This document shows, in pieces, positions 6,338-34,331 of a DNA stretch of 40,954 bases (the stretch's first letter is position 1; each line of letters starts with the position of its first letter). Position numbers and translations under genes: made by a program. The DNA lies in the UHGV virus genome UHGV-0187710, one strand, 5' to 3'. The DNA comes from a virus. The notes beneath the pieces are model-generated. The model saw only the letters and a list, made by a program, of their open reading frames with translations. It made no database searches and was not told the DNA's origin.

Positions 6338-6709
6338 TCACTGAGCCGCTTTAAGCTTTCCGTCCACCGCGCCGGTGATGCCGAAGAGTTGCCCCTGATC
6401 CTCCTGGAGGATGGTGAGCTTCCCGCCTTTGTTGACCCACATTGGTGTTTCGGTGGTGTCTTCTTCAGAGACTTTGCCGCGCGGCGTTGGTGTGCTGTAT
6501 TTCAGCTTGTGCTTGATCTTGACGCGTTTCTCTTCGACAGAGTTACCCATGCGCTCAAAATCAAAGGTGAGAACTACCTGGCCTTTGTTACCGTTGTTCA
6601 GAACGCCGAGCGCAGTGGTATTAAGCGCTCCTGCTATTTTGTTCATGAACACTCCGGCATCCAGTTCGCTCAGAAAGTCGGGTACTACGGTCGTGCGGTC
6701 ATTACTCAT
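6338..6709 (-). CDS. hypothetical phage early protein, first gene of the leftward block
   Basis: start taken at internal ATG 6709 (MSNDRTTVVPDFLSELD...); the longer track ORF to 6796 begins with an implausible Cys/Trp-rich extension. Confidence 0.6.
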   Translation of the reverse strand: MSNDRTTVVPDFLSELDAGVFMNKIAGALNTTALGVLNNGNKGQVVLTFDFERMGNSVEEKRVKIKHKLKYSTPTPRGKVSEEDTTETPMWVNKGGKLTILQEDQGQLFGITGAVDGKLKAAQ

Positions 6710-7523
6710 GGTTTTACCCTCGTTAAGGCGGCTGCCACCGCCGTGTTTTCTCCATACACAACAGAGAAGGGCACCTGCAATTGTTGGCGACTGCAATCGC
6801 TATCCTCTTGCCCGGGTGGATTGGGTTATGAGCCCGTCACACGGTGATACCCTTTTCTGTTGCGTAAAAAGGGCGGTACCGAGGTAGAACATTATCTTCG
6901 TCCCCCTTGCATAAGGTTGAAGACCCTGGTACCGCCAAGACTACACACAGCAATACTGGAACTACGGTTATCACGGTCCTAAGCGTGATTTGGTTGTGGT
7001 GGCCGGTACTACGATATTCCGGCATGGGTTGATTATCAGTGACGCACCCTTTCGGGACACTACCTCACGGTTTAGCGCATCAGCCTGCGCATTCACCACA
7101 ACGAAGAGAGCACTGCCGGTGTTCGAATCGAACGAACCTTTTCCCTGCCCAACCCTCCCAACTGAATGGGACTGTCTGGAATCGAACCAGCACTTATGCC
7201 TTGCTCGTCAATGCTCTCGTCGTTGTGCCCTGAAAAAGGCTGGCGGTGACCGGACAAGTGGGAAAACACCGGGCCGCCAGAACAGGGAAGTACTTGTTAT
7301 TGCTTTGGCCTGCTTTTAACCACATCAGGCGCGGTGGTAAGCCATTTGCGAATCATCCGGTTATTCATATGCCACCGGCGGCTACTTCGTGGGCGTCCTG
7401 CCTGTTCGCTGTTGATGAGTTGAATATACTTGTGAGTAATTTTTGTGTAAATACCTTTTGGTATATTTTTATTTACTTTTATAGCAACTAATTGCTTTTA
7501 ATTGGATTTTAATTAAGCAGGTG

Positions 7524-7759
7524 ATGGGTGTTATGCTCAAAAAAACACCAGGTGGCTTGGTATAGAACGTGATGAACTGGAAGAAGACCGTGCGGCATTC
7601 ATCGCTGGTGAAATTGGCGGTGCAGTTTTCGAGTTGATAATCAACGGTGTGGTGATAAGTCGAGATGCGATTGTACATAGCTTGGAGACTAAGCGTCGCG
7701 CGGTTGGAAATGTGATTCACAAAGGAGTGTTGCGGGATGCTGCTATGGTGAGAAAATAA
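7524..7759 (+). pseudogene. small cargo ORF next to cI, interrupted at an A7 homopolymer (needs -1 slippage or one extra A); function unknown
   Basis: ATG 7524/7533 opens a 13-codon frame that stops at 7563; the -1 frame is open from 7517 to the TAA at 7757 and reads as plausible protein (ELEEDRAAFIAGEIGGAVFELIINGVVISRDAIVHSLETKRRAVGNVIHKGVLRDAAMVRK); A7 run at 7539..7545; a terminator follows the stop. Confidence 0.3.
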
Positions 7760-7760
7760 T

Positions 7761-7790
7761 ATTTAACCCGGCGCTTGCGCCGGGTTAAAT
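7761..7790. terminator. bidirectional rho-independent terminator shared by the small plus-strand ORF and cI
   Basis: perfect 14-bp inverted repeat atttaacccggcgc / gcgccgggttaaat around a 2-nt centre, T-rich on the plus side (gttattttct) and A-rich upstream (T-rich on the minus strand). Confidence 0.6.
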
Positions 7791-7838
7791 GTTATTTTCT
7801 AGAAGATGTTAAGTCTGTTTCAAATTCTAACACCAAAA

Positions 7839-8549
7839 TTACAATTTGTTGTAAGCTATTGATTCGTGTAGTAATGCTTTACCCATAATGTACAATTGAT
7901 CCTGGTTTTCTTCTGTTATGTACCAGTCTTTGTACACCGGGTTATCGGATAAAACTGCAAGTTGCAAGCCCTGCATCTGCAAGCGCTTCACATGGAAGTG
8001 CTGTCCGAATACAAACGCATAAACACCATCAACCTTGAAGTTTCTTACCGAAACATCAAAAAACAACCTGTCTCCAGACTGTATAGTTGGACACATGCTG
8101 TCGCCATCGACAGTCATCACTTTTACGTCTTCCTGAGAACGATTTCCGAAAAGTGAACGAGCGTGCTCGGTGGTGAATTCAATGGCGTGTAGAACCTCAA
8201 CAAATTCAGAGAGCATAAAACATCCAGGACCAGCACTCACAGTAAGGTCGAGAACTTCTACACGATAATTGTCGGCTTTGTGAGTGGGTACATCAACATC
8301 CATTTTTGAAGTTGGACTAAGACCATCCATCCATCCCCGGCTGATTTTCAAAGCATCCTCGATCTGCCGAGCAGCCTGCTCCCCAATATTCCGCTTATTA
8401 GGTTTACCAGCAGGGTAAAGCATCCGAGAAACAACAGTCGGATCAAGTCCTGCCTTTTCAGCAAACTCTCTTTGGGTCTTAAAGCGAGTTACTAACTCCT
8501 GAAGTTTGAGGCGTCGTAACTCGAAGATCTTAGGCGTTTCCGTTTTCAT
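7839..8549 (-). CDS. cI: CI-type prophage repressor (HTH N-terminus, LexA/S24 autocleavage C-terminus)
   Basis: N-terminal HTH-like region (FAEKAGLDPTVVSRML); Ala-Gly cleavage site (VSAGPG), Ser motif GDSM and Lys in HVKRL; divergent from a cro-like gene. Confidence 0.9.
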   Translation of the reverse strand: MKTETPKIFELRRLKLQELVTRFKTQREFAEKAGLDPTVVSRMLYPAGKPNKRNIGEQAARQIEDALKISRGWMDGLSPTSKMDVDVPTHKADNYRVEVLDLTVSAGPGCFMLSEFVEVLHAIEFTTEHARSLFGNRSQEDVKVMTVDGDSMCPTIQSGDRLFFDVSVRNFKVDGVYAFVFGQHFHVKRLQMQGLQLAVLSDNPVYKDWYITEENQDQLYIMGKALLHESIAYNKL

Positions 8550-8648
8550 AATTTCATCTTACTTAAATCTACCTTGAGGTAAATGACTTGTGGGTATTGA
8601 CTTGTGTTTACTTGGGGGTATATTTGCTTTTTAAGCACAGGAGGCGTG
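8550..8648. promoter_or_regulatory. cI/cro intergenic switch region with putative rightward promoter and operator-like repeats
   Basis: TTGACT (8597..8602), 16 nt, TATATT (8619..8624), then AGGAGG and the cro ATG; direct repeats TGACTTGTG at 8584..8592 and 8598..8606; imperfect 18-bp palindrome ATCTACCTTGAGGTAAAT at 8567..8584. Confidence 0.5.
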
Positions 8649-31362: not shown

Positions 31363-34331
31363 GTGGTAATGCCGGAACGCTGGCGGTCAGTCTGCATGTG
31401 AACAGCGCCTCTTTCAAAGCCGACCTTATGGATGCTTATCAGACCGGCAGCCGTGAGGCCCGGCGATTTGCTGAGTCCACTCGCAGGGAAATGAAAGAGA
31501 CCGGGGATGCCATCGGCAGTGTGGGTACCAGTGCCGGAGGGCTGGGACGCACTTTCGAAGGCCTTTCCTCGCGCCTGAAAACAGGAAGCGGCGGCTTTGA
31601 TCAACTGCGTAGTGCTCTCAATGGTTTTGCTGCCACGGGGAATGTGTCCGCCAGTACGCTGGCTAATGCCCTGGTACCGGCGATATCCCGGACGCTGACG
31701 GGGGCTGAACAACTGAAAGGTGTGCTCGCTCAACAGCGGGACGCGTTCAGCAAAACCGCTCAGGCGGCATATGATGCCGCCCGGGCGCAAATCCAGTCGG
31801 CGCAGGCGGCAAAGCAAAAAGCACTGGATGTGGCACAGAGCGCGGCAAAAGACTATGAAGCAGCGAAGGCTGTCGAAGAAAATGCCGTGGCGCTGGCGCG
31901 TCATTACGATCAGCAGCAGAAAGTCAATAAAGAGTACGGTCTTGCGGTCAGTTACAGAGAGGAATACCGGAAGATAAACGCGCAGCTTAAAGAGTCAGAC
32001 ATGGCGGCCAGCGTCGCCAAACAACGGGTGGCTGCGGCGGGAAAGGCAGCGGCAGAAGCGGAGGCACTGGAAGCACTCGGAAAGTCGAAGCTCTCGGATG
32101 CCATGCGTCTTATCAGCGCCAGGAACTATGAGATTTCTCTGTCAGCGCGTGCCGCCGCTGCGGGTACCGCGTTGCTGAACGGTGCACTGGCGATGGTAGG
32201 CGGGCCGGTCGGTCTGGGGATTATTGCGCTGGTTTCTGGCGTGACGGCACTGTGGTCTGCCTACAGCAAAGCTGAAGAAAAAACGAAAGCCCTGAATGCG
32301 GCATTACTGCAAGGCAATAGTGGCGCGTCACTCAGCCTGACCCGGATCCGGGCGCTGAATAAAAGCCTGGGTGACACGGATGGCTCCATGAAGGCAGTGA
32401 CGGCTGCGGTTAAGGCCGGGTTCAGCGGCGAGATGCTGGATCGCGTGTCCTCAGTCGGTAGCCAGCTGGAATCACTGGGGGGGAATGCGGATGAGCTGGT
32501 CCGACAGCTGTCATCCATCAGTGGCGATCCGGTCAAAGCGATGCAGGATGCCACGCAGCAGGGGTACGAATTTAATGCTGCGCAGATAGAGCAGATTGCC
32601 ACCCTGGCCCGCCTGGGTAAAACCGCCGAGGCGGTGGCGCTGGTGCAGAAAATCATGCTTGATGACGTTGCGGACAAAATGAAGGAGCAACAGCGTCAGA
32701 CTGAGGAGAGCATTGGCTGGTGGGAGAAGCTGAAGAAAGCTGTTTCTGAAGGGCTTGAGGGCTACGCTTCAGCGCAGATTGAGACCAGTCGCGCGATGGC
32801 GGCCGCGGTGGGGGTGGATATTGATGAGCCCGCCCGAAAGCTCAAAGAGAAGCGGGACGAAGAGAAAAAACAGGAGGAAGACCGGGCTCAGGCCGCCCGT
32901 CAGCGCCAGGATGAGCAGAGCAAAGAAATCACCGCCCAGATAAATCTGGCCGCCTGGATCAAGGCCGGGACGGATAAAACCCGTCTTGCAGCAGAAGCCA
33001 CCGCCGATCTCAGTACCCGCTATAAGGCCGGAAAAATCACCGCTGATGAGTACGCTTCTGCCCTGAGAGGGATAGACAAACTCTACGGTGATAAAAAAAC
33101 CGGGGTGTCCGCCCATCAGGACAGCGAGGGTGTTCGCCGTCTGGCGCAACTGAAGCAACAGGAAGTGGTGCTGAAAGCGCAGGGGCGTGAAACGGAGCGG
33201 ATGGGTGAAAGTCAGAAAAAATTACTGGCTTTTGAACAGGAAATCGCGTCTTACGCCGGGAAAAAACTGACAAAGGCCCAGGAAAGCGTACTGGCTATGC
33301 AGGATCAACTGCGTGCCCAGCTTGAAACTAACGCAGCCCTGGAGAAGCAAAACGCACAACGTAATCTGGCTGTGACGCTTGAAAAACAACTCCGGGATGT
33401 CAGGGAGGAAACGGCACGCCGTCAGCAGGAGCAGAATAACGCTGCTGCTCAGGTGACGATGAGCGACCGGGAATATGAGCAGATGGTCACCCTGCAACAG
33501 ATCCGTGAGGATTTTGCGCAGAAACAGAAAGCGCTCGATGAGGAGGTAAAAGACCATTCATCAGTGCTTTACCAGGCACAGACACAGGCGCTTGCCGAAG
33601 AAATGCAGAGGCAGACTGAAATCGTCAAAAAAGGCGCCGAAGACAAAAAAGCGGCTGAGGAGGATTTTGCGGGAGCCGCCGCCGCAGGCATGAAGAACTG
33701 GATGGACAAGGCCGGTAACTATGCACAGCAGATAAAGGACGCAGTGTCGAACGCCATGGACGGGCTGGCGGATAACATTGTCGCCACCCTTAACGGCAAT
33801 AAAAGCTCATGGCGTGACTGGGGGACGATGATACTCCAGACCATTCAGAAAATTCTGGTGAATGCCGCGCTGGTTAACGGCCTGAAGGCACTGGGCGGAT
33901 CACTGGGTGGTGCCGGAGGGATCCTGGGAGGGATTGGCAGTGCAATTTCCGGTGTGGTGGGTAATGCCCGGGGGGGCGTCTATGACTCTCCGGGACTCAG
34001 TGCTTACAGCTCTACTGTCGTCGACAGGCCCACGCTGTTTCCGTTTGCCAAAGGGGCGGGACTGATGGGGGAAGCGGGGCCGGAAGCGATTATGCCGCTG
34101 ACCAGAGACAGTAAAGGTCGTCTGGCCGTCACCGCGACGGGAATGGAAGGGACGGGAGGTGGCGTGGTGGTTAATCAGCAGTTCAGTGTGCACATACAGA
34201 ATGACGGCAGTAACGGTGAAATAGGCCCCGGCGCGCTGAAGATGGTGTATGAGATTGCCGAACAGGCAGCAATGAAAACACTGACTGTGCAGGGGCGTGA
34301 TGGTGGCAGGCTGAGCGGAGCATACAGATGA
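31359..34331 (+). CDS. tail tape measure protein
   Basis: 990-aa ORF, long Ala/Gln/Glu-rich helical regions and Gly-rich C-terminal part, positioned after G/GT. Confidence 0.93.
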   Translation: MSGNAGTLAVSLHVNSASFKADLMDAYQTGSREARRFAESTRREMKETGDAIGSVGTSAGGLGRTFEGLSSRLKTGSGGFDQLRSALNGFAATGNVSASTLANALVPAISRTLTGAEQLKGVLAQQRDAFSKTAQAAYDAARAQIQSAQAAKQKALDVAQSAAKDYEAAKAVEENAVALARHYDQQQKVNKEYGLAVSYREEYRKINAQLKESDMAASVAKQRVAAAGKAAAEAEALEALGKSKLSDAMRLISARNYEISLSARAAAAGTALLNGALAMVGGPVGLGIIALVSGVTALWSAYSKAEEKTKALNAALLQGNSGASLSLTRIRALNKSLGDTDGSMKAVTAAVKAGFSGEMLDRVSSVGSQLESLGGNADELVRQLSSISGDPVKAMQDATQQGYEFNAAQIEQIATLARLGKTAEAVALVQKIMLDDVADKMKEQQRQTEESIGWWEKLKKAVSEGLEGYASAQIETSRAMAAAVGVDIDEPARKLKEKRDEEKKQEEDRAQAARQRQDEQSKEITAQINLAAWIKAGTDKTRLAAEATADLSTRYKAGKITADEYASALRGIDKLYGDKKTGVSAHQDSEGVRRLAQLKQQEVVLKAQGRETERMGESQKKLLAFEQEIASYAGKKLTKAQESVLAMQDQLRAQLETNAALEKQNAQRNLAVTLEKQLRDVREETARRQQEQNNAAAQVTMSDREYEQMVTLQQIREDFAQKQKALDEEVKDHSSVLYQAQTQALAEEMQRQTEIVKKGAEDKKAAEEDFAGAAAAGMKNWMDKAGNYAQQIKDAVSNAMDGLADNIVATLNGNKSSWRDWGTMILQTIQKILVNAALVNGLKALGGSLGGAGGILGGIGSAISGVVGNARGGVYDSPGLSAYSSTVVDRPTLFPFAKGAGLMGEAGPEAIMPLTRDSKGRLAVTATGMEGTGGGVVVNQQFSVHIQNDGSNGEIGPGALKMVYEIAEQAAMKTLTVQGRDGGRLSGAYR

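What the first reader, a model, noticed from the sequence alone, without database searches (positions are those of the whole stretch)
7400..7790. Small ORF next to cI (rex-equivalent position) interrupted at an A7 tract, with operator-like motifs upstream and a terminator shared with cI
Between cI and the leftward early region an ATG (7524) opens a frame that stops after 13 codons, but the -1 frame is open for about 80 codons of plausible protein and ends exactly at a perfect 14-bp hairpin terminator. The two frames meet at an A7 homopolymer (7539..7545); one extra A or a -1 slip would give a roughly 78-aa product. The AT-rich upstream region (7421..7520) carries TTGAAT and an ACTTGTG motif (7428..7434) that also occurs twice in the cI/cro operator region. 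This could be a phase-variable or recently inactivated repressor-controlled accessory gene.
Basis: seen in the sequence. Interest (0 to 1): 0.5.

Follow-up and report, generated by a model that had tools for sequence, protein, structure and literature searches.

The report
Small prophage gene with ATA start
The small reading frame next to the prophage repressor is a real, widespread 68-residue phage gene, but in this prophage it is damaged at its start codon (ATG changed to ATA) and not interrupted at the run of seven A's, so it is a weakened or dying copy of an ordinary accessory gene, not a phase-variable switch.

Summary

The long frame belongs to a conserved phage family of about 68 residues (PHROG 3975, function unknown; 563 clusters in Salmonella, Citrobacter and E. 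coli, also phages HK225, HK639 and phi80). In all 59 distinct relatives the protein starts with its own ATG (rarely GTG), at the position of window 7562-7564. This lineage has ATA there.

The A7 run lies upstream of that start. It is part of a leader conserved as nucleotides, not as peptide. The run is interrupted in many relatives, and its frame relative to the gene varies (spacings 28-50 nt). A7 and ATA are identical in all eight independent copies of this lineage.

The allele also lost one helix-3 residue and the conserved C-terminal Gly-Gln. Most likely it is silent or expressed at a few percent, by AUA initiation.

Interest is low to moderate.

The parts
7423..7451 (-). PL-like leftward early promoter (TTTACA-17-TATATT)
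   Evidence: Consensus scan, 10 of 12 matches. Same position relative to the small gene as the annotated pL of phi80 and HK639 and the promoter annotated in HK225.
7427..7463 (.). OL-like operator pair: TACTTGTGAGTA (7427-7438) and TACCTTTTGGTA (7452-7463)
Evidence: Same 11-mer pattern as four sites in the cI/cro intergenic region at 8571-8620. The pattern was defined post hoc.
7524..7565 (+). 13-codon upstream frame (MGVMLKKTPGGLV*). Its TAG overlaps the ATA of the gene. Probably not a conserved peptide.
   Evidence: In relatives this frame gives peptides of 6-41 residues or lacks its ATG. The conservation pattern (NCA NCA, ANA; third positions fixed, first positions free) is not coding-like.
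7529..7537 (+). TG-T-TATGCT, a candidate extended -10 element of the gene's own promoter (inferred)
   Evidence: TATGnT is the most conserved block of the leader in 59 distinct relatives, and also in phi80 and HK639. TG stands one base upstream in 28 of 51 distinct sequences. Variants without the ATG keep TAnnnT (L043 TAAGCT, L012 TAAGTT, L014 TATCGT). The two-hexamer scan does not flag it, because there is no -35.
7539..7545 (+). A7 run, part of the conserved A/CA-rich leader (A.AAAA.CA.CA). Likely lies at or near the transcription start or in the 5' UTR.
   Evidence: Run length is 4-7 among relatives. It is A7 in all 8 copies of this lineage.
7550..7555 (+). Shine-Dalgarno AGGTGG, 6 nt before the ATA
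   Evidence: Read from the sequence. Aligned with the conserved GGG/GGTGG block of relatives. This lineage is 2 nt shorter here (29 instead of 31 nt from the leader ATG to the start).
7562..7759 (+). Small gene of the phrog_3975 family (YmgB/AriR-like three-helix protein), 65 codons. Start codon is ATA instead of ATG, one Ala codon is missing in helix 3, and the C-terminal Gly-Gln is lost. Stop is TAA 7757-7759.
   Evidence: family and lesions; fold.
7761..7790 (.). Hairpin terminator, bidirectional by shape, shared with the convergent cI transcript
   Evidence: One search lists it on the minus strand. The + strand tail GTTATTTT is also T-rich. An equivalent AAAAACCCGGC..GCCGGGTT hairpin follows the stop codon in at least 42 of 48 distinct relatives, whatever gene lies downstream.
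7839..8549 (-). cI-type repressor (HTH + Peptidase_S24), convergent with the small gene
   Evidence: Pfam PF00717, E 5e-17. Annotated as a LexA-family regulator in the E. coli relative.

Best explanation
Window 7562-7759 is a copy of a conserved lambdoid-phage gene of about 68 codons. It encodes a small three-helix protein related to E. coli YmgB/AriR.

In this phage group the gene always sits at the left edge of the immunity region. It lies immediately to the right of OL/PL and is transcribed rightwards, towards the repressor. Its stop codon abuts the hairpin that also ends the leftward repressor or cargo transcript.

Its expression signals are a conserved linear leader: TG-n-TATGnT, then an A/CA-rich stretch, then a GGG-type Shine-Dalgarno sequence, then ATG. 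I read the first block as an extended -10 promoter with the start site in or near the A-run. This is inference, not shown.

In this prophage lineage the start codon has mutated from ATG to ATA. The leader is 2 nt shorter, one helix-3 residue is deleted and the conserved C-terminal Gly-Gln is gone. No frameshift is involved, and the A7 run is an ancestral part of the leader.

Consequence (inferred): the protein is either not made or made at roughly 1-2% of normal by AUA initiation. This is a decaying or strongly attenuated allele.

The protein's role (inferred from the fold only) would be a small protein-binding 'connector' acting on a host regulator, as YmgB does on SpoT and the Rcs relay.
For: Family membership: phrog_3975, E 9.7e-33, profile positions 2-66 of 68 on residues 15-78 of the fused conceptual protein. 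There are 563 clusters, mostly 68 residues, all beginning M[ED]RDELEEDRAAF.

Start codon: ATG in 76 loci, GTG in 3, and ATA only in the window lineage. Direct alignment shows gatATGgaacgt in the E. coli relative against ggtATAgaacgt here.

Frame relation: the spacing from the leader ATG to the gene start is 31 nt in most relatives, and 28, 29, 30, 32, 33, 34 or 50 in others, so the frame relation is not conserved. A-run length is 4-7.

Nature of the leader: it is conserved as nucleotides, also in phi80 and HK639 where the protein is only about 44% identical. It has no conserved RNA structure.

Selection on the family: 23-25 synonymous against 6-7 non-synonymous differences.

Lineage-specific lesions.

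Fixed allele: ATA and A7 are identical in eight independent assemblies of two sublineages.

Synteny. Terminator.

AUA initiation runs at 1-2% (range 0.02-3%) of AUG in E. coli (bioRxiv 10.1101/063800).

The same gene is a pseudogene elsewhere: an internal TAG in five E. coli genomes, and truncated copies in L012, L016 and L017.
Against: No transcription or translation data exist for any family member.

The promoter assignment rests only on the conservation pattern. The consensus scan does not flag it in the window or in four relatives.

SD-like purine runs precede the leader ATG in about half of the lineages (AGGTG in the window, AAGGAGGTG in L042). The short upstream frame may therefore be transcribed and translated.

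The 65-codon frame is still intact. All 8 differences between the two sublineages fall outside it (about 0.014 if neutral, though the differences are clustered). Every residue substitution is also seen in other family members. The allele may therefore still be under selection and not dead.

The functional inference from YmgB rests on 19% identity.
Confidence: 0.75

Rival explanations
1. Translation starts at ATG 7524 (or 7533). The product reaches the long frame by a -1 ribosomal or transcriptional slip on A7, or after gain of one A. This gives a 78-residue protein and makes the gene phase-variable.
For: The geometry is right: in this lineage alone the leader-to-gene spacing is 29 nt, so the gene lies in the -1 frame of the upstream ATG. 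tRNA-Lys on AAA AAA A can slip (general knowledge). AGGTG lies 9 nt before ATG 7533. One relative, L076, shows an A6 variant, so the run can change length.
Against: Relatives with the same A7 and the same leader (L042, L045, L048, L051, phi80) have their own ATG and stand in a +1, not -1, relation to the upstream ATG.

The zero-frame context CTC AAA AAA ACA is not an X XXY YYZ heptamer. No stimulatory structure is conserved.

The N-terminal extension is not part of the family. Annotated long forms have unrelated extensions.

A7 is invariant in 8 of 8 copies.

If TATGCT is the -10, the upstream ATGs are not transcribed at all.
Confidence: 0.05
2. The short upstream frame is a genuine translated leader. 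The gene is expressed by translational coupling: ribosomes terminating at UAG 7563-7565 re-initiate on the overlapping AUA 7562-7564. The start-codon change would then matter less than it seems.
For: The upstream frame stops within a few bases of the gene's start in several lineages: TAATG overlap in phi80, TGAtATG in the E. coli O157:H16 relative, ATAG overlap here. SD-like runs precede the leader ATG in about half of the lineages. The ORF is intact and unchanged between sublineages.
Against: In the commonest arrangement (31 nt) the upstream frame ends 11-14 nt inside the gene, at a TGA created by the gene's own Arg-Asp codons. In other lineages it runs 76 nt into the gene or ends 10 nt before it.

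Three lineages lack the upstream ATG but keep TAnnnT.

The conservation is not codon-like.
Confidence: 0.15
3. The copy is a dead pseudogene. It is still open only because the start-codon loss is recent, and no protein is made.
For: Three lineage-specific lesions hit conserved features: the start codon, a one-residue deletion in helix 3, and loss of the nearly invariant C-terminal Gly. The gene decays independently in other prophages. The neighbouring PL-proximal region of this prophage is also rearranged.
Against: There is no stop or frameshift in 65 codons. None of the 8 sublineage differences falls in the ORF. The SD is retained with good spacing and is if anything closer to consensus (AGGTG against GAGAGGG). 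AUA supports measurable initiation.
Confidence: 0.35

Closest known systems
phrog_3975, the 'hypothetical / bacteriophage protein' family. Members include HK225 gp42 (AFH20353), HK639_46 (ADV02474), E. coli WP_000438990, and an unannotated ORF of phage phi80 (JX871397, about 33339-33557).
   Same: Sequence: 85-94% identity to the Salmonella, Citrobacter and E. coli members. Same position to the right of OL/PL, same orientation, same leader motif, and the same hairpin right after the stop.
   Different: ATA instead of ATG. 65 residues instead of 68: one Ala is missing and Gly-Gln is lost. The leader is 2 nt shorter. No member has a described function.
E. coli YmgB/AriR (PDB 2OXL; Pfam PF10798). 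A small connector protein that activates the Rcs relay and binds SpoT to raise ppGpp (PMC10704370).
   Different: About 19% identity. The window protein does not reach Pfam's threshold; the best member has E 0.016. YmgB is 88 residues with an extra N-terminal segment and is chromosomal, in the ycgZ-ymgA-ariR-ymgC operon. No evidence here for SpoT or Rcs binding.
Lambda rexA-rexB (accessory genes between cI and PL)
   Same: Map position inside the immunity region, next to cI.
   Different: Opposite strand to cI. Own expression signals instead of co-transcription from PRM. No sequence or size similarity. In relatives the true 'rex slot' of variable cargo genes lies between this gene and the repressor.
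dnaX- or IS-type programmed -1 frameshift sites (A AAA AAG) and homopolymer phase-variable contingency genes
   Same: A run of seven A's lies at the junction of two overlapping frames.
   Different: The zero-frame register is not X XXY YYZ. There is no conserved stimulator, no conserved frame relation among relatives, and no length variation in the lineage. The run lies upstream of the family's N-terminus.
Genes with near-cognate start codons (for example infC AUU; established knowledge)
   Same: A near-cognate AUN start behind a good Shine-Dalgarno sequence gives low initiation.
   Different: In infC the odd codon is conserved and regulatory. Here it is confined to one lineage of a family that otherwise uses ATG, so it is a mutation and not a design feature.

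Membership tests
phrog_3975 small phage protein family | Significant full-length profile match | tested here: met
   E 9.7e-33, profile 2-66 of 68. 85-94% identity to members.
phrog_3975 small phage protein family | Own ATG/GTG start at profile position 1 (M[ED]RDEL...) | tested here: not met
   ATA at 7562-7564. ATG in 76 related loci and GTG in 3.
phrog_3975 small phage protein family | Conserved C-terminus ...RDAAxxVRKG[QK] | tested here: not met
   The window has RDAA-MVRK*. One residue is deleted and Gly-Gln is lost.
phrog_3975 small phage protein family | Position to the right of OL/PL, rightward orientation, hairpin directly after the stop, repressor module downstream on the other strand | tested here: met
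YmgB/AriR (PF10798) | Pfam gathering score | tested here: not met
   No hit for the window protein. 2 of 33 family members hit at E 0.016, below the cut-off.
YmgB/AriR (PF10798) | Three-helix YmgB fold | tested here: met
YmgB/AriR (PF10798) | Dimerisation, and binding of SpoT or activation of Rcs | not testable with these tools
   Requires two-hybrid or ppGpp assays as in PMC10704370.
Programmed -1 ribosomal frameshift site | Slippery heptamer X XXY YYZ in the zero frame | tested here: not met
   The zero frame is CTC AAA AAA ACA. Only single-tRNA slippage is conceivable.
Programmed -1 ribosomal frameshift site | Frame relation and slippery run conserved in relatives, with a stimulatory element | tested here: not met
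   Spacings 28-50 nt in all three frame relations. The run is interrupted in many relatives. RNAalifold finds no structure.
Homopolymer phase-variable (contingency) gene | Tract inside the coding sequence and length-polymorphic among close isolates | tested here: not met
   The tract lies upstream of the family's N-terminus. It is A7 in 8 of 8 lineage copies. Read-level data are not available.
Lambda Rex-type exclusion genes | Co-transcribed with cI; RexA/RexB homology | tested here: not met
   Opposite strand. No Pfam, NCBIfam or PADLOC match.

The most novel reading that the evidence does not exclude
Lambdoid phages of many immunity types, including the classic phage phi80 where the gene is unannotated, carry a core gene bolted onto OL/PL. 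It encodes a YmgB/AriR-like connector protein that reprograms a host regulator: SpoT and ppGpp, or the Rcs relay. It is expressed from a conserved -35-less promoter whose position next to the third OL operator would let the repressor control it, as at PRM. The ATA allele in this window would then be a naturally down-tuned version that is still under selection.
Probability: 0.2. Interest if true: 0.55.

Novelty: new member of a known kind. Interest (0 to 1): 0.27.

Why it matters
For the scan: an apparent 'frameshift at a homopolymer' can be an artefact of reading one sequence. Comparison with relatives moved the lesion 20 nt downstream, to the start codon.

Biologically, the allele itself is ordinary prophage decay or attenuation.

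Two by-products have some value. First, a very common and never characterised small gene of the lambdoid immunity region (missed in the phi80 annotation) turns out to be related to YmgB/AriR. That gives a testable hypothesis for what it does in lysogens. Second, the gene marks the fixed left border of the variable cargo slot next to the repressor, which is useful for finding prophage-borne defence genes.

Tried and rejected
- Rfam, whole window at gathering scores: no match. At E<=1 on 6650-7800: only a chance terminator-like hit to rnk_pseudo, below threshold.
- tRNA scan of the window: none at default thresholds.
- Pfam, NCBIfam and PADLOC on the protein: no significant family. The weak HTH_13 hit (E 0.026) and PDC-M09A/M64B hits (1 member each) are rejected as chance.
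- RNA structure in the leader, as an SD-sequestering or frameshift-stimulating hairpin: no consensus structure.
- Two-hexamer promoter scan of the leader in the window and four relatives: not flagged. A conserved TTGGCG-16-GATAAT inside the ORF is explained by codon conservation.
- Metagenome scan for more copies of the ATA lineage: no hit. The IMG/VR scan found only the contig already held.
- Cluster look-up to find a model strain with transcription-start data: names only, no model strain.
- Literature search for phi80 or HK639 work on this ORF: nothing found.

Full report
**What is in the sequence.** The window carries a lambdoid immunity region.
- A cI-type repressor (HTH plus Peptidase_S24) lies at 7839-8549 on the minus strand, and a cro-like gene starts at about 8604.
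- A 13-bp hairpin sits at 7761-7790. It extends to 17 bp if the stop codon is included.
- ACTTGTG occurs at 7428, 8586 and 8600. As a 7-mer it is not enriched in the window.
- It is part of a longer repeated site, ACYTKNNNKTA. Six of that site's eleven window matches flank cI, at 7428-7463 and 8571-8620 (the pattern was defined post hoc).
- A PL-like promoter on the minus strand (TTTACA-17-TATATT, 7451..7423) overlaps the left pair of sites.

The AT-rich stretch is therefore OL/PL, and the small frame lies between OL/PL and cI.

**The long frame is a known gene family with its own start.**
- The conceptual fused protein matches PHROG 3975 (68 positions, function unknown) at E 9.7e-33. Only its residues 15-78 match, on profile positions 2-66.
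- The large protein collection holds 563 clusters, mostly of exactly 68 residues, from Salmonella, Citrobacter and E. coli. All begin M[ED]RDELEEDRAAF.
- In the closest complete E. coli genome the gene is annotated (WP_000438990). The alignment shows gatATGgaacgt where the window has ggtATAgaacgt.
- Across 97 fetched loci (59 distinct sequences) the start is ATG in 76 loci and GTG in 3. It is ATA only in the window lineage.
- Some database entries are 77-109 residues long because an upstream ATG happens to be in frame. Their extensions differ from each other (MLCSKKHQRGLG-, MVTKSPKMGGG-, MYMIKKTISKGWV-), and all retain the internal Met.

**The A-run is not a frameshift site.** The stretch upstream of the start is conserved as TG-n-TATGnT-n-A-n-AAAA-n-CA-n-CA...GGG...ATG. 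This holds in all immunity types sampled, including phi80 and HK639, whose proteins are only about 44% identical.
- The distance from the leader ATG to the gene's start is 31 nt in most relatives. It is 28, 29, 30, 32, 33, 34 or 50 nt in others, so the two frames stand in every possible relation. The window lineage alone has 29 nt.
- The A-run is AGAAAAG, ATAAAAT or ACAAAAT in many relatives, and A6 in one (L076).
- Close relatives with the identical A7 leader (L042, L045, L048, L051) have an ATG start and a +1 relation.
- The peptides of the upstream frame range from 6 to 41 residues.
- The conserved bases are codon positions 2-3 (NCA NCA) or 1 and 3 (ANA), the opposite of coding constraint.
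- Three lineages have lost the upstream ATG but keep TAnnnT (TAAGCT, TAAGTT, TATCGT).
- RNAalifold finds no common structure.

I therefore read TGnTATGnT as an extended -10 element, with transcription starting in or near the A-run and a short unstructured A/CA-rich 5' UTR. This is an inference. The two-hexamer scan does not flag it, and SD-like runs before the leader ATG in about half the lineages leave room for a translated leader. Either way, a conserved slip at the A-run is excluded.

Within the lineage, A7 and ATA are identical in the window, in six contigs with the same cI (two sublineages) and in one IMG/VR contig.

**State of this allele.** The family is under purifying selection: 23-25 synonymous against 6-7 non-synonymous differences to distant members. 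The window lineage carries four private changes:
- ATG changed to ATA;
- a 2-nt shorter leader, which leaves AGGTGG 6 nt before the ATA;
- loss of one Ala in RDAAAMVRK;
- replacement of the C-terminal KGQ* by K*, with a remodelled, longer hairpin.

AUA initiates at about 1-2% (range 0.02-3%) of AUG in E. coli (10.1101/063800).

For residual function: the frame is intact, its substitutions all occur in other members, and none of the 8 differences between the two sublineages falls in the 198-nt ORF. That would be about 0.014 if neutral, but the differences are clustered.

For decay: three conserved features are hit, and the same gene is a pseudogene elsewhere. Five E. coli genomes have an internal TAG, and L012, L016 and L017 are truncated copies.

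I cannot decide between 'attenuated' and 'dead', and put them at roughly even odds.

**What the gene is.**
- With a deeper alignment (A5, from a profile search of 1.8 billion representatives), AlphaFold gives a confident three-helix model: pLDDT 91.6, helices 3-27, 34-47 and 51-64.
- Independently, the family profile finds the 2oxl sequence at E 7e-6.
- Pfam's YmgB model is not reached.
- YmgB is a small connector protein that activates the Rcs relay and binds SpoT to raise ppGpp. Arg74 in helix 3 is required for SpoT binding (PMC10704370). The family's nearly invariant Arg58 aligns with that Arg in the HMMER alignment. The numbering is by my own count and should be checked.

A role as a small host-regulator-binding protein is thus a reasoned guess, not a result.

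**Context in relatives.**
- In phi80 the homologous ORF is unannotated. It lies about 45 nt to the right of the third annotated OL operator, and pL points the other way.
- In HK639 and HK225 it is an 'unknown' CDS next to the annotated pL.
- In 17 sampled loci it is followed by 0-3 unrelated minus-strand cargo genes and then the repressor. The repressor is either the S24 type or the short Gifsy type.
- The AAAAACCCGGC...GCCGGGTT hairpin follows its stop codon in at least 42 of 48 distinct sequences. The scan places its T-tract mainly on the minus strand, so it is chiefly the terminator of the repressor/cargo transcript.

The gene is thus a fixed landmark at the left border of the variable 'rex slot', and not itself a variable moron.

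**Verdict.** The lesion is the start codon. Novelty is low, since this is an allele of a known hypothetical family. The added value is the YmgB/AriR relationship and the conserved leader.

Noticed in passing
window 6740-7400 (minus strand), core 7060-7245: About 660 nt without a convincing ORF lie directly downstream of PL and before the yfdP-like gene. Minus-strand RNA 7245..7060 folds into a 17-bp closing stem around three hairpins, two with T-loop-like UUCGAUU loops (MFE -73.1, z -3.7). ARAGORN at 90% threshold calls a tRNA-Asn(gtt)-like unit at 7113-7192; at default thresholds it calls nothing. There is no Rfam match. The core is 92-93% identical to the same intergenic position in Stx2 phages, and to DNA just upstream of tRNA-Arg(tct) in SPN1S/SPN9TCW. 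It looks like a degenerate tRNA-like array in the early-left leader.
   Followed up: partly
window 6997-7107 (minus strand): A second module has the closing stem GUUGUGGUG/CACCACAAC, a D-arm-like GCGC-AGGCUGAU-GCGC hairpin and a GCCGG...CCGGC hairpin. Its first 40 nt (GTTGTGGTGAATGCGCAGGCTGATGCGC...) are 90-95% identical in more than 100 phage records of very different types, including virulent Klebsiella phages. In ZCKP8 it sits next to a tRNA-like sequence, and in SPN9TCW a real tRNA-Arg occupies its place. It is not in Rfam. It could be an undescribed tRNA-associated phage RNA, or a mobile tRNA-gene fragment.
   Followed up: partly
window 6865-7221 versus L007/L008: Prophages with the identical cI are mosaic here. 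This 357-nt segment is replaced in L007/L008 by a 652-nt segment carrying two ORFs of 102 and 113 residues. In E. coli ECONIH4 the equivalent place holds a 'ClpX C4-type zinc finger protein' gene.
   Followed up: partly
L001 1227-2342 (E. coli O157:H16 relative); similar 378-380-residue ORF in L090: In the closest E. coli relative the first gene downstream of PL is a RelA/SpoT-domain protein. This is curious given that the small gene's structural relative YmgB binds SpoT. It is seen in only two of the sampled loci and may be coincidence.
   Followed up: no
window 7614-7641 (+): A promoter-like TTGGCG-16-GATAAT lies inside the small ORF. It is present in all relatives scanned. The most simple explanation is conservation of the codons for IGGAV.ELII, and nothing but the terminator lies downstream.
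   Followed up: partly
L098 (phage phi80, JX871397) 2489-2707: The reference annotation of phi80 has no feature for this conserved ORF, although it has the leader motif, an AAGGAG Shine-Dalgarno sequence, an ATG and a terminator hairpin. The short upstream frame ends in a TAATG overlap with its start.
   Followed up: yes
loci L004, L028, L037, L040, L041, L013, L086 (between the small gene and the repressor): The slot between the small gene and the repressor holds unrelated cargo in different prophages: a ParA-like ATPase, a 272+167-residue pair, paired 116-171-residue proteins resembling HK97 gp48/gp49, a lipoprotein, and others. This is a likely hot spot for exclusion or defence genes.
   Followed up: no
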